From an uncultured Actinomycetota bacterium (GTDB taxonomy: Bacteria; Actinomycetota; Actinomycetes; Streptomycetales; Streptomycetaceae), in NCBI GenBank assembly GCA_963820715.1, contig CAWGAU010000004.1, forward strand, positions 385,773-449,772: a DNA stretch of 64,000 nt. Reading direction: 5' to 3'. Made by a program: the position numbers and the translations under genes. Position 1 is the stretch's first letter, and each line of letters opens with the position of its first letter. Below the pieces are notes generated by a model. That model was not told where the DNA came from, did not search any database, and saw nothing but the letters and a program-made list of their open reading frames with translations. Shown here piece by piece: positions 2,891 to 40,683 of this stretch.

Positions 2891-3489
2891 ATGGCCGAAC
2901 TCCACGAAGTCCTGACCGCCGTGGGCCCGCGGCTGCGCTCGCTGCGCCACGCCCGCGACACCACGCTCGCCCAGCTCGCCGAGGAGACCGGCATCTCGCT
3001 GAGCACCCTGTCGCGTCTGGAGTCGGGGCAGCGCAAACCGACCCTGGAGCTGCTGCTGCCGCTGGCGAAGGCGTACGGCGTCCCGCTCGACGAACTGGTC
3101 GGCGCCCCGGCCACCGGCGACCCCCGCATCCACCCGCGGCCCTTCACCCGGCACGGCCAGACGTTCATCCCGCTCACCCGCTACCTCGGCGGGCTGCACG
3201 CGTACAAGCAGATCCTCCCCGCGGTCCCGGACCGCCGACGAGCCCCGGCGAGCGCCCCGCCCAGCGCACGCACGAGGGGTACGAGTGGCTGTACGTGCTC
3301 TCCGGACGGCTACGGCTGGCGCTCGGCGACCGCGACCTCGTCCTGGGGGCCGGCGAGGCGGCCGAGTTCGACACGCGCACGCCGCACGGCTTCGCGAACG
3401 CGGGCGACCGCCCGGTGGAGTTCCTCGCCCTGTTCGGGCCGCAGGGGGAGCGCGTCCACCTGCGGGCCCGCGCGGGGCCCACCGGCTGA
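2891..3489 (+). CDS. XRE-family HTH transcriptional regulator with C-terminal cupin domain; one frameshift ~3235
   Basis: HTH_3: LRSLRHARDTTLAQLAEETGISLSTLSRLESGQRKPTLELLLPLAKAYGVPLDELV. The cupin continues in a second frame: YEWLYVLSGRLRLALGDRDLVLGAGEAAEFDTRTPHGFANAGDRPVEFLALFG. Confidence 0.8.
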
Positions 3490-3499
3490 CGGGAGTCCG

Positions 3500-5189
3500 T
3501 CAGTCCCCGGTGGCCGTCGGTCCGTTGGCCGGCGGCGGCCCCAGCGCCCCGTTCGTCAGGCCCTCGCGGGCCAGTGCGGCGGTCCGCGCCGCGAGGTCGG
3601 CCACCTCGCGCGACCCGCGTCCTCCAGCTCGCTGGAGCGCGCGGAACGCGCCGCCGTAGCGCCGCTGTTCGCCGAGGTCCATCTGCGGGACGCGCGCCCC
3701 GCGCGCGTCCAGCCGGAGGACGCCGCTGCCGGTCGCCGACCGCCGCTGTTCGACCGGACCGAGCAGGAAGCCGCGCAGGAAGTCGGTGTCGAGCCGGTCG
3801 CTGGTCGACACCAGGGCGCCGTCGGCGAACTCCACCAGGCCCGCCCGCGCCAGATCCGCCACGCCCACCGACGCGCTGTCCAGCGTGCCGGGCCCCGCGC
3901 CCGCGGCCAGGACCGGCAGCAGCGGTCCGCAGGGCGGTCAGGCGTCGACTCCAACTCGGCCCGCAGCGCTTCGTATTCGGCCGCGTAGTCCCGGTCGGCG
4001 CCGGTGAGACGTGGGTGGCCGGGGTCAGGTCGACCGTGTCGTCCAGCAGGTCGATCAGCGGCACCTCGGCCACCTGCGACGGGTCCGGATCGAGCGCGCC
4101 GTCGGGGGAGTTGCCCGTCAGGTCGACCATCCGCACGCACCGCGCGCCCTCGCGCACCGGCCGCAGCAGGAACCACAGATGGACCGGCAGCACGTGGCTG
4201 CCCGCCACCCCCGGCGGCAGCGCCACGACCTGGGTCAGGATGCCGCGCCTGACCAGCTCGGCCCGTATCCGGCGTCCCGCCTTGCGGTACGCCACGGACG
4301 CGGGCAGCACCAGCACCGCACGGCCGCCGGGCGCGGTGTGCGCGTACGCGTGCTGGAGCCAGGCGAGTTCGCTCTCGGCCCGCGAGGGGACGCCCAGCTC
4401 CCAGCGGGTGTCCAGGAGCAGGTCCTCCCGGCCCCAGTCAGGCACGGCCACCGGCGGGTCGCAGACGACCAGATCGGCTCTGAGCTGCGGCCAGCCGTCC
4501 TCGCGCAGGGCGTCGCCGCTGCGGATGTCGGCCCCGGCGCGGCCGGTCAGCCCGGCCCGCAGCCGGGCGAACTCCGCCATCGCCGGGTCGATCTCCTGCC
4601 CGTGCCTGACCGGCCCCGACGCCGGGCCGACCGACAGCAGCAGGGTGCCGATCCCGCAGGCCGGGTCGAGGACGGCCGCGTCCTTCGGCACGTCACCGGT
4701 GAAGTGCCGCACCGCCTCCACGATCCGCGCGGAGGTGATCTGGTCCGAGCCCGAGCGGCGGGAGGCCTCCGCGAAGCGCTCGGTCAGGCGGTCGATCAGC
4801 TCGGCGGCGGAGCCGGTGGCCGCGACCTCGGCCGTCCGCCGGGCGAGGTCCGCGCCCAGCCCCGGCGGCGGCCGCCCGTCGGTGAGCTGCCGCGCGACGG
4901 CCGCCAGCCCGCGCACGAGGTCGTCGCCGTACACCCCGCGCAGCAGTTGCCACAGCTCGGTCTCGCCGGAGGTCTCCCGGCCCTTGTGCTCGCGGGCGAG
5001 CCAGTCGCGCACCTCGGCGAGCCGGAAGAGCGGGCTGCTCGGACCGCCGCCGGCCGGTGCGGGGAAGTCGTCGTGGCGGCGCCGCCAGTTGGAGACGGCG
5101 GCTCGCGTCACCCCGGCCATCCGGGCGATCTCGGCGCCTGTGACCAGCGGATCAGCGGCTGAGCGGGCCTGGGCACTCATGGTCGTCAC
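3500..5189 (-). CDS. N6-adenine DNA methyltransferase with N-terminal MerR/excisionase-type HTH; two frameshifts (~3900, ~3990)
   Basis: N-terminal HTH: MTTMSAQARSAADPLVTGAEIARMAGVTRAAVSNWRRRHDDFPAP. SAM motif I: VLDPACGIGTLLL. Motif IV-like: LVVCDPPVAVPDW. The C-terminal ~230 aa is recovered from two other frames (...RLTGADRDYAAEYEALRAELE... then ...PLLPVLAAGAGPGTLDSASVGVADLARAGLVEFADGALVSTSDRLDTDFLRGFLLGPVEQRR...). No restriction endonuclease gene is adjacent. Confidence 0.75.
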
Positions 5190-5353
5190 CGTACACGGCC
5201 GGGCCGTGTCCCTCCAGGGTCGTGTGTGTTGGCGGCGTACACAGACGGGGAATTAGGGGTGTCGATTGTGTACGAGCTGTCCGGTTACGGACACGGGGTC
5301 CCCCACCGTCGGAAGACGGGAAAGAGCGCCCTCCGGTTCGGCCCGCGCCGAAT

Positions 5354-5369
5354 CGGAGAGCGCTCTCCG
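5354..5369. promoter_or_regulatory. perfect 16-bp palindrome CGGAGAGCGCTCTCCG (copy 1)
   Basis: It lies 46 bp downstream of the GH3 stop and 165 bp upstream of the methyltransferase start. An identical copy is at 9095-9110. Confidence 0.5.
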
Positions 5370-5405
5370 GTCATTCCGTTCCCTGCCGGCGGTGCGGCGG
5401 CAGGA

Positions 5406-8400
5406 TCAGTTCCAGCCGGTCAGCCCCGCTCCGTAGGGGTACAGCGGGTTGCCGTACGTGGTCGGCACCGTCTGGCCGGCGTCGATCTTCGCCCGGATGT
5501 CCGCCCGCTCGGCGGCGGTGGCGCCCAGGTCGTACGGCAGGTCCCAGTCCTCGTTCGCGTCGGCCAGGGTGTCGCCGCCGCCCGGCTTGAGGACCTGGTC
5601 CAGGCTGCGCGGCAGCTGCCAGGGCAGCTTGCCGCGCGGGGTGTAGTCGCCGAAGAGCAGGCTGGCGGTGGCCGGGCCCGACCTCCTCGCCGCCGCGGTA
5701 GGTCACCACGATGGCGTCGGCGAGGTTGTTCCAGTCGCTGATCACGATCGGGCGGGGCAGCGTCAGCACGCACCACCACCGGGATCCCCTGGTTCTTGAA
5801 GTTCTGGATGATGGCGAGCTGGTCGGCCGGCAGGTACGGCTGGGTGTCCGGCCAGGCGGTGGCGTGGGTGTACGACGGCTCGCCGACCGCGACGATCGCC
5901 AGCTTCGGCGATCGGGCCGGTGTCCTGGTAGACGTTGACCCCGGCGGTCGCGGCTCTCGCCTTGATCGCGTCGAGCATGTCCAGCGAACCGTAGTCCGGG
6001 TGGAAGTAGCTGGACCAGATGCAGCACGACGCGCCGTCGGTGGCCCGCGGGCCCGGCGACCACGATGTTGTCGCCCGCGTTCAGCTTGCACCGGCAGCAC
6101 GCCGTCGTTCTTCAGCAGCGTGTGCGACTCGCGCGCCGCCTGGTTGGCCAGCTGCGACGTAGCTCGGGCTGGTGGAACCGGTACGGGCCGTTGACCGGGT
6201 CGCCGTACGGGTGGTCGAAGACGCCCAGTTCGAACTTCAGCTTCAGGATCCGGGTCACCGCGTCGTTGATCCGGGCCAGCGGCACCTGCTGCTCGAAGCT
6301 CGCCATGGTGAAGCCGGTCGCGCCCGGGTCGGCGCCGCCCATCACGTCCGAGCCGGCGTTCGCCGCGTTGATCCACGGCGACCGGACGGCAGCCAGTCGG
6401 TGGTGATCAGACCGGTGTAGCCCAGGTTCTGCCGCAGGTAGGTGAGGATCTTCGCGCTGTCGCCCGCGCCGGGACCGCCCGGGTCCAGGTACGAGCTGCC
6501 CGCGTAGCCCGGCATGATGTTGACCGCGCCGGCCTCCATCGCCGCCTGGAACGGGATCATGTGGTACTTGATGGTGACCCCGTCGTAGACGATCCCGGCC
6601 TCGCCGCCGGCGCCCTCGCCCGGCCAGTGCTTGACGGTGGCCAGCACCGAGCCCGGGTTCAGCTCCGGACCGCCCTGCAGCCCGGCGACCAGCGCCCGCA
6701 GCTGGGCCGCCGCCACGTCGGCGTTCTCGCCGCCGCCCTCCTGGATGCGCGGGTAGAGCACCTTGGTGCCGACCTCGGCGAGCGGCGACGAGCGTGCCGC
6801 GCGCGCCGACCTCGAGCTCCTCCTTGCGCTGCATGTTGCCGAGCTGGTAGTCCAGCGGGTAGTCCTTGCCCGCCGCCAGCGTGCTCTGCAGCGGGTAGGT
6901 GGTCTGGTAGCCGGCCGTGGTGTCGCCGGCGGAGACCGGCGGGATGCCGAGCCGGGTGCCGCCGTGGACGAGCAGCACGTTGTTGAGGTCGGCGGGCTGC
7001 GCGGGACCGAAGTGCCAGCCCGGACATCGGGTACGCCTGGACGTTGTAGAACATCTGGTACGCCTTCTCCTCCAGCGTCATCCGGCCGAGCAGGTCGGTG
7101 ACCCGGGTGTCGACCGGCTAGCCGCCAGTCCTCGTACGGCTCGATCGTGCCGTCCTTGTTCAGGTCGCGGGCGCCGTTGATGACGTTGACGCCGTCGTCG
7201 ACCGTGCTCGATGTCCGGCAGGTACACGCTGAACGTGCGGATGTTCGAGGTGGTCCGTCGCCCCGGAGCCGGTCACCGCGACCACGTACCACTTGTACGT
7301 CCACCGGTCGGTGATGTCCCAGCTCGGCGTGTAGCTGGTGCCGGTCGGCTCGGCGACCTTGGTGTACAGGTCGAGCAGGTTGCCCGGAGGCGGTGAAGTC
7401 GTAGTCGGTGCGGCTGATGTTGATCCAGACCTCGTAGTGCGCGGCGCCCGGCGACGGCCGCCCAGGACAGCGCCGGCCGCGGGTGTTGGTGACCATCGCC
7501 TGGTCGGCCGGGCGCGGACAGCGCGAACTGCCCGGTGGTGGCCGGGGCCTTGGTCGGCCCGGACAGCAGCGGCGGGGTGGCGGTGGAGGTGTCGACCGTG
7601 CCGTAGACCTGGAACTCCCACAGCGAGTAGCCGTATCCGGTGGCGCGGGCGGTGCCGGTACAGCCGCACGTAGCGGCCGGTGCCGGTGACCGGCAGCGTC
7701 TCGACGCCGCCCTTGCCGGTGGTGGTGGTGTAGATCGGCGTCCAGGCGGTGCCGTTGTCGGACACGTCGATGTGGTACCCGGTGCCGTACGCGGACTCCC
7801 AGTTCAGCACGATGCCGCTGATCGTGCCGATGCCGCCGAGGTCGACCTGGAGCCACTGCGCGTCGGTGTACAGGCTCGACCAGCGGGTGGTGGTCCGGCC
7901 GTCGAGCGCGGCGGCCGGGGCGTTGCCGCCCTCGTACGAGGACGCGGAGACCTGCTTGAACGCGGAGATGACGGTACCGGAGAAGTCGCCGCCGCTCGCC
8001 GCCGGTGCCGCCGGTGGTGCCGCCGTCGTGCCGCCGGCCGGTGGTGCGCGCCGCCGGTGTGGACCTGCGAACTCCCACAGCGAGTAGCCGTATCCGGTGG
8101 CGCGGGCCGTGCCGTACATCCGCACGTACCGGCCGGTGCCGCTGACGTCGAGCGTCTGGGTGCCGCCGGTGCCGGTGGTGGTGGAGTAGATCGACGGTCC
8201 AGGTCTGCGGCGTCGCCGGAGACCTGGATCTGGAAGGCCGTCGCGTACGCGGACTCCCAGTTGAGGACGACCTGGCAGATCGGACGCCGAGGCGCCGAGG
8301 TCGACCTGGAGCCACTGCGGGTCGGTGGCCGCGCTCGACCAGCGGGTGCCGGCGTTGCCGTCGACCGCGGCCGAGGCCGGGGTGCCGGCGTTCTCGGTGG

Positions 8401-8985
8401 AGGAGGCGGTCGCCGGCCGGTCCTGAGCGCCGCGTTCGTGCGTGCCGCAGCCGGCCGCCGGCGGCGCCGGCCGTGCCGTAGACCTGGAACTCCCACAGGG
8501 AGTAGCCGTAGCCGGTGGCGCGGGCGGTGCCGTACATCCGGACATAGCGCCCGGAACCGTTTACGGTGAGCGTCTGCATGCCGCCGGTGCCGGTGGTGGT
8601 GGAGTAGATCGTCGGTCCAGGTCTGCGCGTCGTCGGAGACCTGGATCTGGAACGCCGTGCGCGTACGCGGTCTCCCAGTTGAGCGACCACCGAGCGTGAC
8701 GGTGGCCGTGGCGCCGAGGTCGACCTGGAGCCACTGCGGGTCGGCGACGGCGCTCGACCAGCGGGTGCCGGTGTCGCCGTCGACCGCGGCCGAGGCGGGC
8801 GTGCCGGCGTTCTCGGTCGACGAGGCGGTGGCCGGCTTGCCCTGGGAGAGCAGGGTGCCGGCGGCGTGCGCGGTGCCGGTCGTGGTGCCGACCAGGCCGC
8901 CGAGGGCGAGGGCCATCGCGGCGGCCGCGGCGACGGCCGGTCTGCGCCGTCTGATGAAGCCGAGGAGCGGAGACAGCAGGCTCAT
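5406..8985 (-). CDS. secreted multidomain glycoside hydrolase: signal peptide + 3x F5/8 type C (discoidin/CBM32) + GH3 catalytic domains; many frameshifts
   Basis: Start: RBS GGAG then ATG giving MSLLSPLLGFIRRRRPAVAAAAAMALALGGLVGTTTGTAHAAG. Three discoidin repeats (ASSTENAGTPASAAVDG.TGTRWSS...DPQWLQVDLGA). GH3 motifs: MTLEEKAYQMFYNVQAYPMSG, KHWPGEGAGG, GLITTDW, WINAANAGSDVMGGADP, KLAIVAVGEPSYTHA. Reconstructed C-terminus: ...LLFGDYTPRGKLPWQLP...GAGLTGWN stop at 5406-5408. Confidence 0.85.
7560..8880. repeat. three tandem ~430-450-bp nucleotide repeats encoding the discoidin domains
   Basis: The block gaactcccacagcgagtagccgtatccggtggcgcgggc recurs at ~7617, ~8068 and ~8490 (third copy gaactcccacagggagtagccgtagccggtggcgcgggcgg). 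Confidence 0.7.
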
Positions 8986-9094
8986 GGGCATCTCCTGGTG
9001 TGATGTCTGGTGCCGTCGCGGCTCGTCGCCCGGCCGGGCGGCCCCGCCGCTGAGGCTGGGGGGTGACTCGGACTCACAGGACCGGAAATCCGGT

Positions 9095-9110
9095 CGGAGA
9101 GCGCTCTCCG
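9095..9110. promoter_or_regulatory. perfect 16-bp palindrome CGGAGAGCGCTCTCCG (copy 2) in the divergent GH3/araB promoter region
   Basis: It is 110 bp upstream of the GH3 start (8985, minus strand) and 267 bp upstream of the araB start. It is flanked by the imperfect palindrome ACCGGAAATCCGGT. Confidence 0.5.
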
Positions 9111-9376
9111 AGGGGAGTCTGTGGGAGGGCCCGAGCACTGTCAACCCTTGCGGCGCGGGCCGCTTACCTGGCCACCTTGCCCGCTTCGGGGCCGCTCACG
9201 GCCTATCGTGCCCAGGTGCGGCGCGGCACGCCGCCCGTAGGGTGAACGCACAGTGACATCAGGGCGACCGCACAGTGCGCGCACAGCGGACCTACAGGCG
9301 CACCGTGCCGCCGCCCCACAGGTGTCCCTACAGGTTCCGTACCGGCCGCGGGCCGGAGATTCGGGAGTACGCCGAC

Positions 9377-11044
9377 GTGACCACCTCACCGCCCGCCGTC
9401 ACCGTGGGTGTCGACTTCGGGACGCTGTCCGGGCGCGCCGTCGTCGTCGCCGTGGCGGACGGCACCGAACTCGGCACCGCCGTCACCGACTACCGGCACG
9501 GCGTGGTGATCACGAACTCCCGGGCGACCGGCCGTGTGCCGCCGGACTGGGCGCTCCAGATCCCCGGCGACTGGCGCGAGGTGCTCACCGACGCGGTGCC
9601 CAGGGCGCTCGCGGCGGCCGGCGTACGGCCCCGGCCAGGTCCTCGGCATCGGCACCGACTTCACGTCCTGCACGGTGCTGCCGACCACCGCGGACGGAGT
9701 GCCGCTGTGCGAGCTGCCGCGAGTTCGCCGGACCGCCCGCACGCGTACCCCAAGCTGTGGCGGCACCACGCCGCGCAGCCCGAGGCCGACCTGATCGTGC
9801 GACCGGGCCGAGGAGTCCGGGCAGACCTGGCTGGCGGCCTACGGGGGCAAGGTCTCCAGCGAGTGGCAGCACCCCAAGGCGCTCCAGGTGCTCCGCGAGG
9901 ACCCGGAGGTCTACGCCGCCGCCGACCGCTGGATCGAGGCCGCCGACTGGATCGTGTGGCAGCTGACCGGCGCGGAGAACCGCACCCTGAGCACCGCCGG
10001 GTACAAGGGCCTGTACCAGCGGGGCAGCCACCCGGACGCCGGCCTTTCTCGGCTCCCTCCACCCGGACTTCGCCGGCTTCACCGCCAAGGTCGACCACCC
10101 GCTGTCCCGGCCCGGCACGCAGGCGGGCGTGCTGACCGCCGCGGGCGGCCGCGGCCACCGGGCTCCCGCAGGGGCTGCCCGTCGCCGTCGGCCACATCGA
10201 CGCGCACGTCACGGCCGCGGCGGCGCAGACCCTCGACCCCGGCCGGCTGCTGGCCATCATGGGCACCTCGACCTGCCTGATCGTCAACTCCGCGACCCAG
10301 GCGGACGTCCCCGGCATGTGCGGCGCCGTCCTCGACGGTGTCGTGCCCGGCCTGTGGGGATACGAGGCCGGGCAGAGCGGGGTCGGCGACATCTTCGCCT
10401 GGGCCGCCCGCACCGCCGTGCCCGAGGAGTACGCGCAGCGGGCCCGCGCCCGCGGCGTCGGCGTGCACGAACTCCTCACCGAGCTGGCCGCGGCCCAACC
10501 GGTGGGCGGGCACGGCCTGCTGGCCCTGGACTGGCACAGCGGCAACCGCTCCGTGCTGGTCGACCACCACCTGTCCGGCCTGCTCGTCGGCCTCACCCTC
10601 GACACCCGGCCCGAGGACATCTACCGCGCCCTGATCGAGGCCACCGCCTTCGGCACCCGCACGATCGTCGCCGCCTACGAGGACGCCGGGGTCGCCGTCA
10701 CCGAGGTCACGGCGGCGGGCGGCCTGCTGAAGAACCGCTTCCTGATGCAGACCTACAGCGACGTGCTGAACCGGCCGATCAACGTCATCGCCTCCGAGCA
10801 GGGGCCCGCCCTCGGCGCCGCCATCCACGCGGCCGTCGCCGCGGGCGCCCACCCGGACCTGCGCACCGCCTCGGCCGCGATGGGCCGCGTCCACCCCGCG
10901 GTGTACACGCCCGACCGGGCCCGGGCCGCCGCCTACGACGAGCTGTACGCCGAATACCAGGTCCTGCACGACCACTTCGGCCGCGGCGCCACCGATGTGA
11001 TGCACCGCCTGCGCGCCCTGCGCCGCCGCTCGACCGCGCGCTGA
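9377..11044 (+). CDS. araB: L-ribulokinase (FGGY family); frameshifted in the middle
   Basis: VTVGVDFGTLSGRAVVVAVADGTELG matches the AraB N-terminus. C-terminal segment: GTSTCLIV...LDWHSGNRSVLVDHHLSGLLVGLTLDTRPEDIYRALIEATAFGTRTIVAAYEDAGV...YSDVLNRPINVIASEQGPALGAAIHAAVAAG matches AraB. Confidence 0.85.
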
Positions 11045-11427
11045 GCCCCGCGCGGGCCGGCCCCCGCCCGCCGCCGGAGCGAGGGCCGGCCCGCGTCCGC
11101 CGCGGCCCTCCTCCGGCGGGTCCGGCCTGCTCATCGGCCCTGCGCTCGCCCCGCCGGTCCGCCCGTTCGCCGCCGTGCGTCCGCGCAACCGCCCCGCGCC
11201 GGCGCCCCGTTGATTGCCTGCTGCACGGGCCTTGTCAAAGCCGCGTCACGGCTCTTACGGTGTGGCCGCGAAAGAAAATGCTCGACTCTGTTTCATTACG
11301 TTGAATTGGCGTGCTGCGGGCCGTCGTCAGCCGGATCGATCGGCACAATTACGCACGCCTCATGGACCGACCTCGTCGCCGGTCCTGTTCTGTTCGGTTC
11401 TCCGACACCGCGAGCAGAGGAACCTCC

Positions 11428-13472
11428 ATGCCAAGATCCGTCCGCAGGCTGCTCGCCTGTGCGACCGCCGGCGCACTGTGGACCGGCGGCCTCGGCGCCG
11501 TCGCCGTGACCACCGAGGTGGCCGTCGCCGCGGCGCCCGCCGCGGCCCTCGACAACGGCCTGGCGCTGACCCCGCCGATGGGCTTCAACGACTGGAACGC
11601 CTTCGGCTGCAACGTCAGCGAGCAGCTCATCGAGCAGACCGCCGACTACCTGGTCAGCTCCGGCCTGAAGGACGCCGGCTACACCTACGTCAACATCGAC
11701 GACTGCTGGATGACGCACACCCGCGACGCCGACGGCAGCCTCGTCCCGGACCCGGTGAAGTTCCCCGACGGGATCAAGGGCACCGCCGACTACGTCCACT
11801 CCAAGGGCCTCAAGCTCGGCATCTACGAGGACGCGGGCACCGAAGACCTGCGCCGGGCTACCCCGGCAGCCTCGGCCACGAGACCACCGACGCGCAGACG
11901 TTCGCGGACTGGGGCGTGGACTACCTCAAGTACGACAACTGCAACAACCAGAGCGACGGCAGCCGCGCGGACTACGTCAACCGCTACACCGCGATGCGCG
12001 ACGCGCTGAAGGCGACCGGCCGCCCGATCGTCTACTCGCTGTGCGAGTGGGGCGCAGCAGAACCCGTGGGAGTGGGCCGGCGACGTCGGCAACTCCTGGC
12101 GCACCACCGGCGACATCAACGACACCTGGTCGAGCATGCTCAACATCGCCAAGCAGAACATGCCGCTGGCGGCGGACGCCGGGCCCGGGCCACTGGAACG
12201 ACCCGGACATGCTGGAGGTCGGCAACGGCGGCATGACCGACACCGAGTACCGCACGCCACTTCTCGCTGTGGTCGATGATGGACTCGCCGCTGCTCATCG
12301 GCACCGACCTGCGCAAGGCCACCCCGGCGACGCTGGCGATCCTCGGCAACAAGGACGTCATCGCCCTCGACCAGGACCCGCTGGGCTCGCAGGCCACCGT
12401 GGTCTCCTCCGACGGCGACGCGTACGTCCTGACCAAGCAGCTGGCCGACGGCGACCGGGCCGTCGCGCTGTTCAACGCGTCGCGACCAGGCCGCAGCGCA
12501 TCTCCACCACCGCCAAGGCCGCGGGCCTTCCGCAGCGCGGCAGCTACGCGGTGCGCGACCTGTGGAGCCACACCGACTACGACAGCGCCGGCACGCTGTC
12601 CGCGACCGTGCCCGCGCACGGCACCGTCCTGCTGCGGGTGAGCGGCAGCGCCGCCTCCGGCGCGGCGCGCCCTGCTCGACCCGCCGCTGCTCGACACCGG
12701 CGTGTCCAACGCGCCCGACCACATCGAGCCCGGCACGAGCGCGACGGTCGACACCTACGCCACCGACCTCGGCGCCCTGCCCGCCACCCGGGTCGGCGTC
12801 TCGCTCAGCGCCCCCGACGGCTGGACGGTCAAGGCCACCGGCGCCACCAGCGGCCTGGTGCTGCCCAAGGGCCACACGCTCACCACGCCCTGGACGGTCA
12901 CCGTCCCGGCCGGCACCAAGCCGGGCACGTACGCCCTGTCCGGCACGGTCGGCTACGACCAGCCGAGCGGGCGGCAGCCAGGTCACGCGTGCCGCTGGCG
13001 GGCAGCGTCACCGTCGAGGTGCCGCCGCCGTCCGGCACGAGCTACCTCAGCGACCTCGACTGGACCACGGCCACCAACGGCTGGGGGCCGGTCGAGAGGG
13101 ACCAGAGCAACGGTGAGACGGGGGCCGGCGACGGCAACCCGATCACCATCGGCGGCACCGTCTTCGCCAAGGGCCTGGGCACCAACGCGCCGAGCACCAT
13201 CACGTACTACCTCGGCGGCGGCTGCTCGACGCTGAGCGCGACCGTCGGCGTGGACGACGAGAAGAACGGCAAGGGCACGGTCGAGTTCGAGGTCGACGCC
13301 GACGGCACGCAGGTCGCCGACAGCGGAGTGCTGAAGAACGCCGACGGGCCCAAGCCGCTGCACGCCGACGTCACCGGCGCGCAGCAGCGTCCAGCTGATC
13401 GTCACCGACGGCGGCGACGGCAACGACAGCGACCACGCGGACTGGGCCGACGCCCAGGTCACCTGCTCCTGA
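11428..13472 (+). CDS. secreted alpha-galactosidase (GH27) with C-terminal carbohydrate-binding and NPCBM domains; multiple frameshifts
   Basis: Signal peptide [28 protein letters not shown]27 motifs: [66 protein letters not shown]: [26 protein letters not shown]...[33 protein letters not shown]. Ends ...VTCS. Confidence 0.85.
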
Positions 13473-13486
13473 CGACCGGTCACATC

Positions 13487-13526
13487 CCGTACGGCGGCGG
13501 CACGTCCACGTGCCGCCGCCGTACGG
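13487..13526. terminator. 19-bp perfect inverted repeat (CCGTACGGCGGCGGCACGT cc ACGTGCCGCCGCCGTACGG), 15 nt after the alpha-galactosidase stop
   Basis: Read directly from the sequence. A GC-rich hairpin without a U-tract is typical of actinomycete intrinsic terminators. Confidence 0.6.
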
Positions 13527-13780
13527 CGTGCTGCCCAGGGCGGCGCCGGCGCCGGTGCGTGCCGGCTCAGCACGGGGCGCCGCGCCGCGGGCCCGCACCG
13601 TACGGGGGTTTCCGGCGGTCGGCCGGGTGATCCGCGCGGGTGTCACGCGGACGGAGTACACGGAGGGGCGCGACCTTCGGCGCCCGCGCCCTCCCGGCAC
13701 CTCCGTACGCCGCTACCCGAGCGGCCGACCGCGCCGTTGACTGGGAGTTCGGCCCCGACCCGGGAGCGCACATGACCAAC

Positions 13781-14613
13781 AGCCGTAAGCCCGAGACCCC
13801 GGCCTGCGACCAGGCAGCAGCCCCCCACGCGTCAGCCCTGCAGTCCCGACCGCCGCCGTCCACCGGTCGTCTTCGACGCGCCGTTCTCCGACCGCTCGGC
13901 CTGGGCGGTGGGCCGCACCTCCGCCTACCCGCCGGACGGCCGCAACCCCGGCGACAACAAGCTCGACCAGATCGGCCCGGCCTCCGCCCCCACCGCCGAC
14001 GGCGTCTTCCGCGCCCGCCGCACCCGGGACGGCCTGTGGCACGCCGACCTGGTGTCCACCGAGTACGCCCCCGGCGGCTTCGAGCTGCTCCCCGGGCGAC
14101 GAGCTGAGCGCGACCTGCCGGGTGGAGGACGTCCGGGGCGCCTGGCCCGCGCTGTGGACCTGGGGGCGCGACACCGACTCGGGCCGCCCGCAGCCCGGGC
14201 ACGGCGAGATCGACGCCTTCGAGTACCACCCGGACAACCCGCGGATGCTGGAGCTGACCAACCACGTCCGCCGCGCCGCCCGCTACGCCGAGGGCGCGGT
14301 CACCCCCGGGCGGCCGTTCGCGCTGCGGGTCGTGCTCGGCGTGGACAGCGTGGTGTGGGAGGTCGACGGCGCGCGGGTCTTCGCCGACGGCCGGGGCGTC
14401 GGCCCGTCCTGGCGCGCCTGGCCGGTGGTCGGCATCAGCGTCTCCGCGGGGGCGTACGGCCATCTGCCGCCGGACGCCGGGGTGCACGAACTGCGCTGGC
14501 AGTGCACGGAGTCTGACGGTCCGCCGCCCGGTCCTCGACCTGCCCCGGCAGCAGGAGCTGACCGCACCAGTGGCCCCGCCGGCCCCAACTCTTCTTTGGT
14601 CCAGACCTATTGA
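13781..14613 (+). CDS. GH16-like (concanavalin-like glycoside hydrolase) protein; frameshifted, ends uncertain
   Basis: EIDAFEY fits the GH16 ExDxxE catalytic motif. Conserved stretches: RTSAYPPDGRNPGDNKLDQIGPASAPTADGVFRARRTRDGLWHADLVSTEYAPGGFEL and GAWPALWTWGRDT...GHGEIDAFEYHPDNP. Confidence 0.5.
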
Positions 14614-14638
14614 CGAGTGGTCGAGACCACTTTACGAT
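14610..14638 (+). promoter_or_regulatory. chitinase promoter: -35 TTGACG (14610-14615), 17-nt spacer, -10 TACGAT (14633-14638); spacer contains a DasR-type dre box AGTGGTCGAGACCACT (14616-14631)
   Basis: The dre consensus is ACTGGTCTAGACCAGT. The core TGGTCGAGACCA matches with one central mismatch. Streptomyces chitinase genes are classic DasR targets. Confidence 0.6.
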
Positions 14639-14754
14639 CCCGACCATCACCGTGCGTGATCCTCCAGCTTCTCCAACTCACCCGGAGCCGGGCTGCCACG
14701 GCCACCCCCATCGGCTCGGTGGCCGCCGTGCCCGCCGCGGGAAGGGAGCACAGC

Positions 14755-15890
14755 ATGATCGGTCGGAGACTACGGGTAGTGGGGGTCGGCCTGACCCTGG
14801 CCGCCCTCGCCCAACTTCCGGTCGCCGCGGCCGTCCACGCCGCGGCCCCCGGCCCACGAGCGGCGGCCGGCCCGGCCCGGCCGCCGCCGCCGTCACCGCG
14901 CGCCGTCCCGCACACGACCGCCGCCGACACCTGCGCGATCAAGCCGCCGCCCCTCGGGCAAGGTGCTCCAGGGCTACTGGGAGAACTGGGACGGCGCCGC
15001 CAACGGCGTGCACCCGCGGCTCGGCTGGATCCCGATCACCGACAGCCGGATCGCCGCAGCACGGCTACAACGTCATCAACGCGGCCTTCCCGGTCATCCA
15101 GTCCGACGGCACCGTGCTGTGGCAGGACGGCATGGACACCGGCGTCAAGGTGGCCACGCCGGCCGAGATGTGCCAGGCCAAGGCGGCCGGCGCGACGATC
15201 CTGATGTCGATCGGCGGCGCGGCGGCCGGCATCGACCTCAGCTCCAGCGACCGTCGCCGACCGCTTCGTGGCGACCATCGTGCCGATCCTGAAGGCGTAC
15301 AACTTCGACGGCATCGACATCGACATCGAGACCGGCCTGATCGGCAGCGGCAGCATCAGCACGCTGTCCACCTCGCAGGCCAACCTGGAGCGCATCATCG
15401 ACGGCGTGCTGGCCCAGATGCCCGCCGAACTTCGGCCTGACCATGGCGCCCGAGACGGCGTACGTCACCGGCGGCAGCATCACCTACGGCTCGATCTGGG
15501 GCGCGTACCTGCCGATCGTCAAGAAGTACGCCGACAACGGCCGGCTGTGGTGGCTGAACATGCAGTACTACAACGGCAGCATGTACGGCTGCTCCGGCGA
15601 CTCGTACGAGGCGGGCACGGTGGCCGGGCTTCACCGCGCAGACCGACTGCCTCAACAAGGGCCTGGTCGTCCAGGGCACCACGATCAAGGTGCCGTACGA
15701 CAAGCAGGTGCCCGGCCTGCCGGCCCAGTCCGGGCGCGGGCGGCGGCTACATGACGCCGACCCTGGTCTCCCAGGCGTGGAACGCACTACGGCAGCGGCG
15801 CTCAAGGGCCTGATGACCTGGTCGCTCAACTGGGACGGCTCGAAGGGCTGGACCTTCGGCGACAACGTGAAGTCGCTGCAGGGCCGCTGA
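14755..15890 (+). CDS. secreted GH18 chitinase; frameshifted
   Basis: Signal peptide MIGRRLRVVGVGLTLAALAQLPVAAAVHA after RBS GGGAAGGGAG. GH18 motifs: GYWENWDG, NVINAAF, ILMSIGG, FDGIDIDIE (DxxDxDxE), WWLNMQYYN, LMTWSLNWD. Confidence 0.85.
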
Positions 15891-15924
15891 CACGGGGTGC
15901 CGTCCCCGTGCCGCCCGACGGGCG

Positions 15925-15981
15925 CCCGCCGACTGCCCTCGGCGGGCGCCTGCCGTGTTTCCCCGGACCGAACCGGGGAAA
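15925..15981. terminator. two consecutive GC-rich hairpins after the chitinase gene
   Basis: GGCGCCCGCCGactgccctCGGCGGGCGCC and TTTCCCCGGaccgaaCCGGGGAAA. Confidence 0.4.
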
Positions 15982-16118
15982 TGGGCGGGCGCCCGGGCGT
16001 CAGGTCCGCGCAAAGATCACGGCACCCGGTGCCAATAATCCGTATCCGACAGGCGCCTTGGCGCCCGTGAAGCCGCACCCTGGGAGTCCCGAACACCGTT
16101 CCGGCCCCAGGAGGGCGC

Positions 16119-17994
16119 ATGTCCGCAGCCGTCACCGAGCAGTCCCCGGCGCCGGAGGCCGCCGAACCTCCCGATACGGGCGCGGCCACCGACCGGCACC
16201 GGCTCACCGCGCTGCAGGGACTGGCCGCGCTCTCGCTGGACGCGATGGCGTCCGTGGCCTACGGGCCGGAGGCGATCGTCCTGGTGCTGGCCGCGGCCGG
16301 CGCGCACGGCCTCGGCTTCACCCTGCCGGTGACGCTGGCCATCGCCGCGCTGCTCGCCGTGCTCGTCGCCTCCTACCGGCAGGTGATCGCGGCGTTCCCG
16401 GACGGCGGCGGCTCCTACGCGGTCGCCAAGACGCCACCTCGGCCGCCGCACCAGCCTGGTGGCGGCGGCCTCGCTGATCCTGGACTACGTGCTCAACGTC
16501 GCGGTGTCCGTCACCGCCGGCGTGGCCGCGCTCACCTCGGCCTTCCCCGGGCTCTACGGCGACCGGGTGTGGCTGTGCCTGGCCGTGCTCGCCCTGGTCA
16601 CCGCGGTGAACCTGCGCGGCATCGTCGACTCCGCGCGCGGCCTTCATGTACCGACCGCCGTGTTCGTCGCGCTCGATCCTCGCGATCATCGTCGTCGGGC
16701 TCTTCCGCGTCCGCCCCCGCCGCCACGGCCGCCGCCGCACGGCCACGCCTCCGGTCGTCGCGGTCAACGCCACCGGCGTCGGCGCGCTGCTGCTGCTCAA
16801 GGCGTTCGCGTCCGGCTGCTCGGCGCTGACCGGCGTGGAGGCGGTGGCCAACGCGGTGCCGTCCTTCCGCGCCCCGCGCCGTGCGCCGGGCCCAGCGCAC
16901 CGAGGTCGCGCTCGGCGGCGCTGCTCGGCGTGATGCTGATCGGCCTGGCGGTGCTCATCGGCCGCTTCCACCTCCGGCCGGTGCGAGGGCGTCGACCGTC
17001 CTCGCCCAGCTCGCGGACGCCTCGCTCGGCCACAACTGGGCCTTCTACGTGGTGCAGTTCGCCACCGTGGTGCTGCTGGCGCCTGGCCGCCAACACCTCC
17101 TTCGGCGGGCTGCCGGTGCTGATGCGGCCTGCTGGCCCGCGACAACTACCTGCCGCACGTGTTCGCCCTCAAGGCCGACCGCCAGGTGCACCGCTACGGC
17201 GTGCTCACGCTCGCCGGCGATCTCCGCGGTGCTGCTGGTCGCCTCCGGCGGCGACACCAACACCCTCGTCCCGCTCTTCGCGATCGGCGTGTTCGTCGGC
17301 TTCACCATCTGCCAGATCGGCATGGTCCGGCACTGGCGCGCGCGAGCGGGTGCCGCGCTGGCGGCGCAAGGCCGCTGCTCAACGGCTTCGGCGCGGTGCT
17401 CACCGGCGTCGCGGCGGTCGTGGTGACCGGCGACGAAGTTCATGGAGGGCGCCTGGCTGATCGTCGTCGCGCTGCCGCTGCTGGTGGCTGGCCTTCGAGG
17501 GCGTGCACCGGGCGTACGGGCGGATCGGCGCAGCGCCTGGGCCTCGGCCGGATGCCCGGAGCCGCCGCACCGCGGACCGCTCGCTGGTCGTCGTGCCCGG
17601 TCGTCGACCCTGTCCCGGCTGACCAGCGAGGCGCTCACCGCCGCCGTCTCGCTCGGCGACGAGGTGCGCGCGGTGACCGTCACCCACCCCGAGGAGGACC
17701 GGCGGCGACCGAGGCGCTGCGCCGCGACTGGGAGCTGTGGCACCCGGGCGTGCCGCTGACCGAGCTGCCCTCCCCGCACCGCTCGCTCGGCCGGCCGCTC
17801 GACCGCGTACGTCCGCGCGCTCGCCGCCGAGCGACCCGGCACCCGGATCACCGTGCTCGATCGCCGAGGTCGAACCCGTGCACGTCTGGCAGCGGCTGCT
17901 GCAGAACCAGCGCGGCGCGGTCGTCGCCCACGCGGTACGCCGCGACACCGACGCCGTCGTGTGCCGGCTGCGGTTCCGCCTCAGGTCCCTGTGA
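16119..17994 (+). CDS. APC-superfamily permease with ~200-aa C-terminal cytoplasmic domain (KimA-like architecture; substrate unknown); several frameshifts
   Basis: RBS AGGAGG. TM core: ALSLDAMASVAYGPEAIVLVLAAAG...AVLVASYRQVIAAFPDGGGSYAVAKT and LVPLFAIGVFVGFTICQIGMVRHWRA. Soluble tail: ATEALRRDWELWHPGVPLTELPSPHRSLGRPL...VVCRLRFRLRSL. Confidence 0.75.
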
Positions 17995-40613: not shown

Positions 40614-40683
40614 CCGTCGTGGTCCGTGGTCCGTGGTCCGTGGTCCGTGGTCCGTGGTCCGTGCTCCGTGGTCCGTGGTGCGA
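40614..40683. repeat. heptanucleotide microsatellite (GGTCCGT)n, 5 perfect + ~4 degenerate units, directly upstream of the DUF1232 RBS
   Basis: gtggtccgtggtccgtggtccgtggtccgtggtccgtgctccgtggtccgtggtgcgaggtgcgag, read directly from the sequence. Confidence 0.8.

What the first reader, a model, noticed from the sequence alone, without database searches (positions are those of the whole stretch)
5354..9110. Identical perfect 16-bp palindrome CGGAGAGCGCTCTCCG in the promoter regions of the GH3 gene and the methyltransferase gene
Two exact copies lie at 5354-5369 and 9095-9110. The second is in the divergent GH3/araB promoter region, 110 bp upstream of the GH3 start. The first is 165 bp upstream of the HTH-methyltransferase start. 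A GC-rich 16-mer occurring twice by chance in 64 kb is very unlikely. Even-length perfect palindromes with a central GCGC are typical LacI/ROK-type operators (compare the CebR box TGGGAGCGCTCCCA). Co-regulation of a DNA methyltransferase with a glycan-degrading enzyme by one repressor would be unusual. Alternatively the element is a REP-like hairpin.
Basis: seen in the sequence. Interest (0 to 1): 0.6.

Follow-up and report, generated by a model that had tools for sequence, protein, structure and literature searches.

The report
Sugar-repressor binding site flanking a glucosidase gene
The repeated 16-base palindrome is the binding site of a widespread but unstudied LacI-type sugar repressor that switches off secreted beta-glucan-degrading enzymes in actinomycetes; one copy controls the GH3 gene here, the other is an orphan copy inside a hairpin and probably does not control the DNA methyltransferase.

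Summary
CGGAGAGCGCTCTCCG occurs exactly at 5354-5369 and 9095-9110 and nowhere else in the window. Both copies flank one gene, a secreted GH3 glycosidase with CBM32 domains (8985 to 5406, minus strand).

Copy 2 lies just downstream of a TTGACA-17-CAGACT promoter. The same 14-bp core (GGAGAGCGCTCTCC) sits in the same position in all seven GH3 orthologue loci examined. In 67 actinomycete loci carrying the 16-mer, 55 copies are intergenic. Thirty-seven of those adjoin CBM32/GH3-type glycosidases (GH64, GH16, GH3) or a LacI-family regulator, most of them one conserved orthologue with the palindrome in its own promoter. So this is a CebR/CelR-like operator of a beta-glucan regulon. It was noted in silico once (Anderson 2012), and I found no experimental study.

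Copy 1 is different. It lies 36 nt past the GH3 stop and outside the conserved methyltransferase promoter. It has no promoter context, and it forms one arm of a 20-bp-stem hairpin found only in this lineage. A 93-96% identical relative lacks the GH3 unit but keeps copy 1. Methyltransferase co-regulation is unlikely, and the REP reading is rejected.

This is an ordinary regulatory site with one odd orphan copy.

The parts
9095..9110 (.). Copy 2 (PAL2): operator of the GH3-CBM32 gene. The core GGAGAGCGCTCTCC is at 9096-9109. The 18-bp perfect palindrome spans 9094-9111.
   Evidence: Exact match. It lies 5 nt downstream of the -10 hexamer, over the expected transcription start. The same placement is seen in GH3 orthologues L035, L074 and L126-L130 and in many other glycosidase promoters.
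9139..9144 (-). -35 hexamer TTGACA of the GH3 promoter. It is also the exact upstream edge of the GH3 unit that relative L120 lacks.
   Evidence: Read from the sequence. TTGACA sits 23-39 nt (mostly 23-29) upstream of the palindrome in 16 of the 26 glycosidase promoters compared. The homology breakpoint with L120 and L074 is at 9144.
9116..9121 (-). -10-like hexamer CAGACT, 17 nt after the -35.
   Evidence: Read from the sequence. It is identical in L074 and L129.
5406..8985 (-). Secreted GH3 glycosidase with three or four F5/8-type-C (CBM32) domains. It is frameshifted many times in this assembly.
   Evidence: GC3 frame plot and Viterbi reconstruction. Pfam finds F5_F8_type_C, Glyco_hydro_3 and Glyco_hydro_3_C. 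There are 73-81% identical full-length orthologues of 1150-1190 aa. The best NCBIfam hit, below threshold, is exo-beta-1,3/1,6-glucosidase.
5354..5369 (.). Copy 1 (PAL1): an orphan consensus copy of the operator. It lies 36 nt past the GH3 stop and 173 nt upstream of the methyltransferase ATG.
   Evidence: Exact match. It has no TTGACA/-10 upstream and no TGCTATAAAT downstream in either orientation. It is retained in L120, which lacks GH3.
5321..5334 (.). Degenerate operator-like site AAAGAGCGCCCTCC (3 mismatches to the core), 34 bp centre to centre from copy 1.
   Evidence: Such a close pair occurs only in the window and L120.
5322..5367 (-). Composite hairpin: 20-nt arms at 5323-5342 and 5347-5366, 90% complementary, with a 4-nt loop. 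Weaker pairing extends to about 5310-5379. Copy 1 is the 5' arm on the GH3 mRNA strand.
   Evidence: the repeat finder. The RNA fold of 5290-5415(-) is -73.3 kcal/mol, z = -4.76, with 0 of 200 shuffles as stable. The hairpin is present in L120. It is unique among 124 palindrome sites examined.
5382..5404 (-). Short GC hairpin (CCTGCCG...CGGCAGG) immediately after the GH3 stop codon.
   Evidence: RNA fold.
3500..5180 (-). HTH plus N6-adenine DNA methyltransferase (about 558 aa). It is a conserved Streptomycetaceae gene and is most probably not part of the regulon.
   Evidence: Pfam N6_Mtase. Orthologues of 65-97% identity occur across Streptomyces, Kitasatospora and Actinacidiphila. Contexts are shown.
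5191..5285 (-). The methyltransferase's own conserved upstream region, with GTACAC/GTGTAC boxes at 5191-5196, 5237-5242 and 5268-5273. Conservation stops about 65 nt before copy 1.
   Evidence: Alignment of six orthologous upstream regions. blastn breakpoints fall at 5285-5292.
9377..11044 (+). Ribulokinase araB, divergent from GH3. Copy 2 is 266 nt upstream of its GTG. No evidence places it in the regulon.
   Evidence: The clean orthologue passes the NCBIfam ribulokinase equivalog models above cut-off. No araB neighbours the palindrome in other genomes.

Best explanation
The palindrome, whose conserved core is the 14-mer GGAGAGCGCTCTCC, is the operator of a conserved and experimentally uncharacterised LacI-family repressor. 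This repressor is a paralogue of CebR/CelR. In actinomycetes it controls secreted beta-1,3/1,6-glucan-degrading enzymes (GH64, GH16, GH3, GH5 and CBM32-bearing proteins), a sugar ABC transporter, and its own gene.

In this window, copy 2 is the working operator of the GH3-CBM32 gene. It starts 5 nt after the -10 hexamer of a TTGACA-17-CAGACT promoter, so a bound repressor dimer would block initiation. A beta-glucan-derived oligosaccharide would presumably release it; this inducer is inferred by analogy. The repressor gene is not in the window, so it must act in trans.

Copy 1 is a second consensus copy that lies outside the GH3 unit, 36 nt past its stop codon. With a degenerate partner it forms a 20-bp-stem hairpin. 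It has no promoter around it and is not part of the conserved methyltransferase promoter. It is most likely a displaced or relic operator that now serves, if anything, as a terminator or insulator hairpin between GH3 and the methyltransferase. It may also act as an extra repressor-binding (decoy) site.

Shown here: sequence, positions, conservation, linkage and the indel history. Inferred: protein binding, repression, the inducer and termination.
For: Positional bias: of 67 actinomycete loci carrying the exact 16-mer, 55 have it in non-coding DNA (p = 2e-37 against 13% expected).

Neighbours: 37 of those 55 adjoin either a CBM32/GH3-type glycosidase (30) or a LacI regulator (18).

The regulator: the LacI proteins have the Pfam LacI HTH plus Peripla_BP_3. 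Most form one orthologous group, 55-85% identical, with an invariant AGVSRATVSRV-NG-RNV recognition region. In 17 of 18 loci the palindrome is 22-176 bp upstream of the gene. Eleven of the 17 loci compared show a fixed layout, PAL-4nt-TGCTATAAAT-about 6nt-ATG, across five genera. S. griseus shows it too.

Target genes are GH64, GH16, GH3, GH5-CBM2, DUF1996, CBM32/CBM6/ricin proteins and sugar-binding proteins.

Promoter layout: glycosidase promoters share TTGACA, about 17 nt, a -10, then the palindrome.

Orthologues: all seven GH3 orthologue loci have exactly one core palindrome in that position and none downstream.

Literature: Anderson et al. 2012 (PMC3377646) independently reported GGAGAGCGCTCTCC in Streptosporangium roseum. 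They found it upstream of an ABC operon and of a cluster with a LacI regulator, two CBM32 proteins and a GH3.

Copy 1: hairpin evidence is. It lies outside the conserved methyltransferase upstream region. It is absent from the 83% methyltransferase orthologue loci L121/L122; the 84% loci L123/L124 carry only a degenerate remnant of copy 2. Relative L120 lacks window 5392-9144 but keeps copy 1.
Against: No LacI gene is present in the window, so the cognate regulator in this organism is assumed rather than seen. A LacI gene just beyond the left edge in relatives is a different paralogue with no palindrome.

No binding or expression data exist.

Copy 1 is a perfect consensus site, which is unexpected for a functionless relic. 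However, the only comparison genome (L120) is too close for conservation to be informative.

The hairpin lacks a canonical U-tract, so terminator function is uncertain.

Confidence: 0.75

Rival explanations
1. Both copies are working operators and one repressor co-regulates the GH3 gene and the DNA methyltransferase.
For: Copy 1 is a perfect consensus site 165-173 nt upstream of the methyltransferase start, on the same strand direction, with a second degenerate site beside it. In L120 it persists in the methyltransferase-araB intergenic region after GH3 was lost.
Against: Copy 1 lies beyond the roughly 105-bp upstream region conserved among methyltransferase orthologues. That region carries its own GTACAC/GTGTAC boxes. 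Orthologues at 83% identity have no palindrome; the 84% ones carry only a degenerate remnant of copy 2. Neither real-site promoter architecture is present. No other palindrome locus has a methyltransferase neighbour. A site about 65 nt or more upstream of a promoter is a poor position for a LacI-type repressor.
Confidence: 0.1
2. The two flanking consensus sites cooperate: a repressor bound at both loops the 3.7-kb GH3 gene to tighten repression, as LacI does with O1 and O2.
For: Two perfect sites bracket the gene. Several Streptomyces loci also show operator, GH3, operator, then lacI (L020, L046, L052, L088).
Against: In those loci the downstream site is simply the lacI promoter operator. The regulators match only profile positions up to about 330 of 358 in the NCBIfam LacI family model and end right after the core domain. 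The missing part is what I take to be the tetramerisation tail, so they are probably dimers. The spacing is 3741 bp. The seven other GH3 orthologue loci have no downstream site.
Confidence: 0.07
3. Copy 1 matters only as RNA or DNA structure, as an intrinsic terminator of GH3, and its identity to the operator is incidental or historical.
For: A 20-bp stem begins 36 nt after the stop, with z = -4.76. The one substitution in L120's 3' arm keeps pairing (A-U becomes G-U) while making the degenerate site less operator-like.
Against: An exact 17-nt identity with the regulon consensus cannot be chance, so an operator origin is needed anyway. No U-tract was found by the scan. In L120 the hairpin sits between divergent genes, where a terminator has no role.
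Confidence: 0.3
4. The palindrome is a REP-like dispersed element, or the pair are terminal or target repeats of a mobile GH3 cassette.
For: The copies flank a gene that is present or absent between close relatives and sits in unrelated contexts in other genomes. In some non-actinomycete genomes the same 16-mer lies between convergent genes like a terminator (L029, L032, L078).
Against: There are only two copies in 64 kb. The 119 hit rows came from about 115 different genomes rather than many rows per genome. The indel boundaries (5392 and 9144; 5293 and 9024 in L123) do not fall at the palindromes. Copy 1 is outside the unit and copy 2 inside it. Other GH3 units carry a single copy.
Confidence: 0.03

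Closest known systems
CebR/CelR box (TGGGAGCGCTCCCA) of the cellobiose-responsive LacI repressors of Streptomyces and Thermobifida
   Same: It is also a 14-bp perfect palindrome with the same GAGCGCTC centre. The regulator is likewise a LacI-family protein, the targets are secreted polysaccharide hydrolases, and the regulator gene carries the site (own knowledge plus PMC3377646).
   Different: There are two base differences per half-site (GGAGAGC versus TGGGAGC). The regulator is a different orthologous group. The targets are beta-1,3/1,6-glucanase-type enzymes and CBM32 proteins, not cellulases. No binding has been demonstrated.
The GGAGAGCGCTCTCC site predicted in Streptosporangium roseum (Anderson et al. 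2012, PMC3377646)
   Same: The core sequence is identical and the gene company is the same: a LacI regulator, CBM32 proteins, a GH3 and an ABC transporter.
   Different: That report covers one genome and is purely in silico. Here the site is traced across more than 15 genera, with promoter architecture, autoregulatory layout and a beta-glucan enzyme set.
GlyR3 of Clostridium thermocellum, a LacI-family repressor of the celC operon (PMC5483248)
   Same: It is an autoregulated LacI-family repressor controlling a glycoside-hydrolase operon (seen here only as the title and abstract start). That the operon includes a beta-1,3-glucanase and that laminaribiose is the inducer are from my own knowledge.
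   Different: The phylum, operator sequence and operon organisation are all unrelated. It is only a functional analogy for the likely inducer.
E. coli lac O1/O2 auxiliary operators
   Same: A second operator lies downstream of the promoter-proximal one.
   Different: lac O2 is 401 bp away and works through a tetrameric repressor. Here the spacing is 3.7 kb, the regulator appears to lack a tetramerisation tail, and orthologous genes have no downstream copy.

Membership tests
LacI-family operator | Even-length palindrome of 14-20 bp with a central CG step | tested here: met
   CGGAGAGC|GCTCTCCG is a perfect 16-mer (18-mer for copy 2) with a central C|G.
LacI-family operator | Overlaps the core promoter or transcription start of the regulated gene | tested here: met
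   Met for copy 2: TTGACA-17-CAGACT-5 nt-palindrome, conserved in orthologues. Not met for copy 1: no promoter-like hexamers on either side.
LacI-family operator | The same site recurs upstream of orthologous target genes in other genomes (phylogenetic footprint) | tested here: met
   All 7 GH3 orthologue loci have one core palindrome upstream. About 25 further glycosidase promoters also carry it.
LacI-family operator | Recurrent genomic linkage to a LacI-family regulator gene, typically autoregulated | tested here: met
   18 loci have a LacI gene beside the palindrome, 17 of them upstream of the gene. A conserved PAL-TGCTATAAAT-ATG layout is seen, and Pfam confirms LacI plus Peripla_BP_3.
LacI-family operator | A cognate regulator is encoded in the same genome | tested here: inconclusive
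   No LacI-like gene in the 64-kb window (tblastn). The rest of the genome is not available. The neighbouring LacI in relatives is another paralogue.
LacI-family operator | Sequence-specific binding by the repressor, relieved by a sugar inducer | not testable with these tools
   Needs EMSA, DAP-seq or ChIP and induction experiments.
CebR/CelR box proper | Match to TGGGAGCGCTCCCA | tested here: not met
   Two mismatches per half-site. Anderson et al. treat it as a distinct CelR-like palindrome.
REP or dispersed palindromic element | Tens to hundreds of copies per genome at extragenic positions | tested here: not met
   Two copies in 64 kb even allowing mismatches. The 119 hit rows are spread over about 115 genomes. 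The scan was truncated, so this is not a full census.
Intrinsic terminator (copy 1 only) | Stable GC-rich hairpin shortly after a stop codon | tested here: met
   A 20-bp stem begins 36 nt after the GH3 stop, z = -4.76.
Intrinsic terminator (copy 1 only) | U-rich tract following the stem | tested here: not met
   The terminator scan found none. The tail is CUCUUUCCCGUCUUCC. Actinomycete terminators often lack U-tracts (own knowledge).
Terminal or target-site repeats of a mobile cassette | Presence/absence breakpoints coincide with the repeats | tested here: not met
   Breakpoints are at 5391/5392 and 9144/9145 (L120) and at 5292/5293 and 9024/9025 (L123). The palindromes are not at the junctions.

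The most novel reading that the evidence does not exclude
Copy 1 could be an operator built into a terminator hairpin, making termination or a roadblock repressor-dependent. In that case the beta-glucan-sensing LacI repressor would gate read-through from the strongly induced GH3 gene into the conserved orphan HTH-N6 DNA methyltransferase. That would couple genome methylation to nutrient sensing.
Probability: 0.07. Interest if true: 0.55.

Novelty: new member of a known kind. Interest (0 to 1): 0.3.

Why it matters
The result gives a concrete, testable regulon for an unnamed LacI repressor that is conserved from Streptomyces to Micromonosporaceae and Streptosporangiales. Its targets are enzymes that attack beta-1,3/1,6-glucans, such as fungal cell walls and laminarin. 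The operator, promoter layouts and a model-organism handle (the S. griseus orthologue P0321) are now defined. That is useful for annotation, for mycolytic enzyme expression and for designing inducible promoters. It is an extension of the well-known CebR/CelR paradigm, not a new principle. The eye-catching idea of a methyltransferase under sugar control is probably an accident of gene neighbourhood.

Tried and rejected
Plain ORF listing failed because the assembly is frameshifted every 100-300 bp. I replaced it with a GC3 Viterbi reconstruction.

The shuffle test with 3 mismatches was uninformative.

I searched the window for a LacI gene and found none. A LacI gene just outside the window in relatives looked promising. 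It is a 32-38% identical paralogue with no palindrome.

I tested whether the two palindromes are recombination or target-duplication ends of the GH3 unit. The breakpoints do not match.

I tested whether copy 1 belongs to a lacI-type promoter remnant. There is no TGCTATAAAT.

A crude MFE measure of whether the palindrome pairs outside itself was not discriminating in GC-rich DNA. I replaced it with an explicit inverted-repeat test.

An Rfam scan of 5100-9500 found nothing relevant.

Full report
OBSERVATION. The 16-mer CGGAGAGCGCTCTCCG occurs exactly at 5354-5369 and 9095-9110 and nowhere else in the window, even with three mismatches. The 14-bp core with two mismatches also gives only these two sites. 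No exact match arose in 100 dinucleotide shuffles. The shared string is 17 bp, and copy 2 is an 18-bp perfect palindrome. In this 73% GC window, perfect 16-bp palindromes are not enriched (6 seen, 5.5 expected). Repeated 16-mers are frequent, and 2 of 100 Markov simulations produced some repeated palindromic 16-mer. Local statistics are therefore only moderately convincing, and the case rests on comparative data.

GENE CONTEXT. The window is a Streptomycetaceae-like sequence whose coding frame, read from third-position GC, shifts every 100-300 bp. Against a clean relative there are 54 gap openings in 6.7 kb. It is therefore an indel-rich assembly, and ORF lists mislead. A frameshift-tolerant reconstruction with Pfam and NCBIfam gives the following map:

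- glpK and glpF;
- an XRE-cupin regulator (2900-3463, +);
- an HTH-N6 DNA methyltransferase (3500-5180, -);
- one long secreted GH3 glycosidase with CBM32 (F5/8 type C) domains (8985 to 5406, -);
- ribulokinase araB (9377-11044, +);
- a GH27-NPCBM enzyme and a GH18.

Both palindromes therefore flank the same GH3 gene. Copy 2 is 109 nt upstream of its ATG. Copy 1 is 36 nt downstream of its stop and 165-173 nt upstream of the methyltransferase start.

WHAT THE MOTIF IS. Sixty-seven of these came from actinomycetes of more than 15 genera. In those 67, the site is non-coding in 55, against about 13% expected (p = 2e-37).

Clustering the flanking proteins gave two dominant families:

- 33 CBM32/GH3-type proteins, mostly with the palindrome upstream;
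- 18 LacI-family regulators of about 335-350 aa, 17 of them with the palindrome 22-176 bp upstream.

Thirty-seven of the 55 intergenic sites adjoin one or both families. Pfam identifies the targets as GH64 and GH16 beta-1,3-glucanases, GH3, GH5-CBM2, GH2-like TIM barrels, DUF1996, CBM32/CBM6/ricin modules and sugar-binding proteins. This enzyme set points to beta-1,3/1,6-glucan degradation.

Most of the regulators form one orthologous group. They are 55-85% identical from Streptomyces to Asanoa, Actinoplanes and Microbispora, with an invariant recognition region AGVSRATVSRV-NG-RNV. They carry the Pfam LacI HTH plus Peripla_BP_3 and match no NCBIfam equivalog. Public sources name them only generically.

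Additional perfect 14-bp cores with different flanking bases occur in the same loci. The conserved unit is therefore GGAGAGCGCTCTCC.

PROMOTER ARCHITECTURE. Two architectures recur.

- At glycosidase genes, a TTGACA -35 lies 23-39 nt (mostly 23-29) upstream of the palindrome. The site therefore begins just after the -10 and covers the start point.
- At the regulator gene the layout is palindrome, 4 nt, TGCTATAAAT, about 6 nt, ATG. This is an operator over the -35/spacer of a leaderless promoter. S. griseus shows it too.

Copy 2 fits the first architecture exactly: TTGACA at 9144-9139, 17 nt, CAGACT at 9121-9116, 5 nt, then the palindrome. The seven GH3 orthologue loci (L035, L074, L126-L130) each have one core palindrome in this position and none downstream.

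Anderson et al. 2012 (PMC3377646) had already noted GGAGAGCGCTCTCC in Streptosporangium roseum. They found it upstream of an ABC-transporter operon and of a cluster with a LacI regulator, two CBM32 proteins and a GH3, and called it CelR-like. I found no experimental work on the regulator.

The half-site differs from the CebR/CelR box at two positions, so this is a paralogous system, not a CebR box.

COPY 1 IS DIFFERENT. Several observations separate it from copy 2.

- It has neither promoter architecture in either orientation, and the promoter scan finds nothing.
- Alignment of methyltransferase upstream regions from five orthologous loci shows conservation, including three GTACAC/GTGTAC boxes, only for about 105 bp before the ATG. 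Copy 1 lies beyond that.
- The 83% orthologues have no palindrome. The 84% ones carry only a degenerate remnant of copy 2.
- The methyltransferase is a widely conserved Streptomycetaceae gene. No other palindrome locus has it as a neighbour.
- Copy 1 pairs with a degenerate operator-like site (5321-5334) across a symmetric spacer. Together they form a hairpin with 20-nt arms, 90% complementary, and a 4-nt loop.
- The RNA fold gives -73.3 kcal/mol and z = -4.76. The hairpin is preceded by a shorter one directly after the stop codon.
- Among 124 palindrome sites examined, only this one and its L120 homologue are embedded in such an inverted repeat. The 34-bp site pair is likewise unique.

LOCUS HISTORY. 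A 93-96% identical relative (L120) has araB and the methyltransferase as direct divergent neighbours. It lacks window 5392-9144, which runs exactly from the -35 hexamer to 14 nt past the stop. It keeps copy 1 and its hairpin.

More distant relatives (L123/L124) lack 5293-9024. They retain the GH3 promoter, a degenerate copy 2 (CGCAGGGCGCTCTCCG) and most of the 5'UTR, fused to the methyltransferase upstream region.

The simplest reading is that the GH3 unit was ancestral at this spot and was lost twice, with different breakpoints. An 11-nt microhomology lies at the L120 junction. The breakpoints do not coincide with the palindromes, so the copies are not recombination ends.

In other genomes the same GH3 unit sits in unrelated neighbourhoods.

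MECHANISM. A dimeric LacI-family repressor encoded elsewhere in the genome binds copy 2 and blocks initiation at the GH3 promoter. A beta-glucan-derived oligosaccharide presumably relieves it. The inducer is inferred by analogy with CebR and cellobiose, and with the laminaribiose-responsive GlyR3; both are from my own knowledge (GlyR3 paper listed).

The dimer inference rests on the proteins ending right after the core domain. They match the NCBIfam LacI family model only to about position 330 of 358.

Copy 1 would also be bound, being a perfect site. It has no promoter to act on. Its most plausible present role is structural, as part of a terminator or insulator hairpin between GH3 and the methyltransferase. 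It could also simply be a relic or decoy site.

Looping, methyltransferase co-regulation and a regulated terminator remain possible but lack support.

VERDICT. The operator interpretation is right for the motif and for copy 2. Methyltransferase co-regulation and the REP alternative are not supported. This is a new, well-delineated member of the CebR/CelR type of LacI regulons, previously glimpsed in silico, with one lineage-specific orphan copy. Interest is modest.

Noticed in passing
whole window, e.g. 5400-9000 and 9364-17000: The assembly is riddled with frameshifts. The coding frame judged by GC3 switches every 100-300 bp, and there are 54 gap openings in 6.7 kb against a clean relative. 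Genes do not appear as intact ORFs.
   Followed up: yes
window 5191-5285 (boxes at 5191-5196, 5237-5242, 5268-5273): The methyltransferase has its own conserved upstream region with three GTACAC/GTGTAC boxes, shared by orthologues at 83-97% identity. It may be a binding site for its N-terminal HTH domain (autoregulation).
   Followed up: partly
window 5392-9144 versus L120 9790-9800; window 5293-9024 versus L123/L124: The GH3 unit, from the -35 hexamer to 14 nt past the stop, is precisely absent from a 93-96% identical relative. Its coding part was deleted independently in another lineage, leaving the promoter and 5'UTR. An 11-nt microhomology CCCT(T)GC(C)GGCG sits at both ends (5381-5391 and 9145-9155).
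   Followed up: yes
window 9063-9077 (minus strand GTGAGTCCGAGTCAC): A conserved motif lies in the GH3 5'UTR. It is shared with L074 and with the L123 remnant. Its function is unknown, and there is no Rfam match.
   Followed up: partly
L121 15510-16526, L123 6749-7765, L120 18206-18859 (just beyond the window's left edge): Relatives encode a different LacI paralogue next to a GH30-CBM32 gene beyond glpK. It is 32-38% identical to the cognate group and has no GGAGAGCGCTCTCC site. In L120 only a 217-aa fragment is called.
   Followed up: partly
window 40618-40652: A 7-bp tandem repeat, CGGACCA, is present in five copies.
   Followed up: no
window 7596-8800: Long internal direct repeats lie within the GH3 gene. 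They correspond to the tandem CBM32 (F5/8 type C) domains and account for most of the repeated 16-mers in the window.
   Followed up: partly
L029, L032, L066, L078, L089 (non-actinomycete loci): In unrelated phyla the same 16-mer sits 23-75 nt from the ends of convergent genes, like a small terminator hairpin. The sequence alone therefore does not imply the actinomycete operator role.
   Followed up: no
L006 3328 and 6007; L039 1044 and 5108: Two loci carry two exact copies, all within coding sequence. In L006 the whole 8 kb is one reading frame. They are probably repeated protein modules and unrelated to regulation.
   Followed up: no
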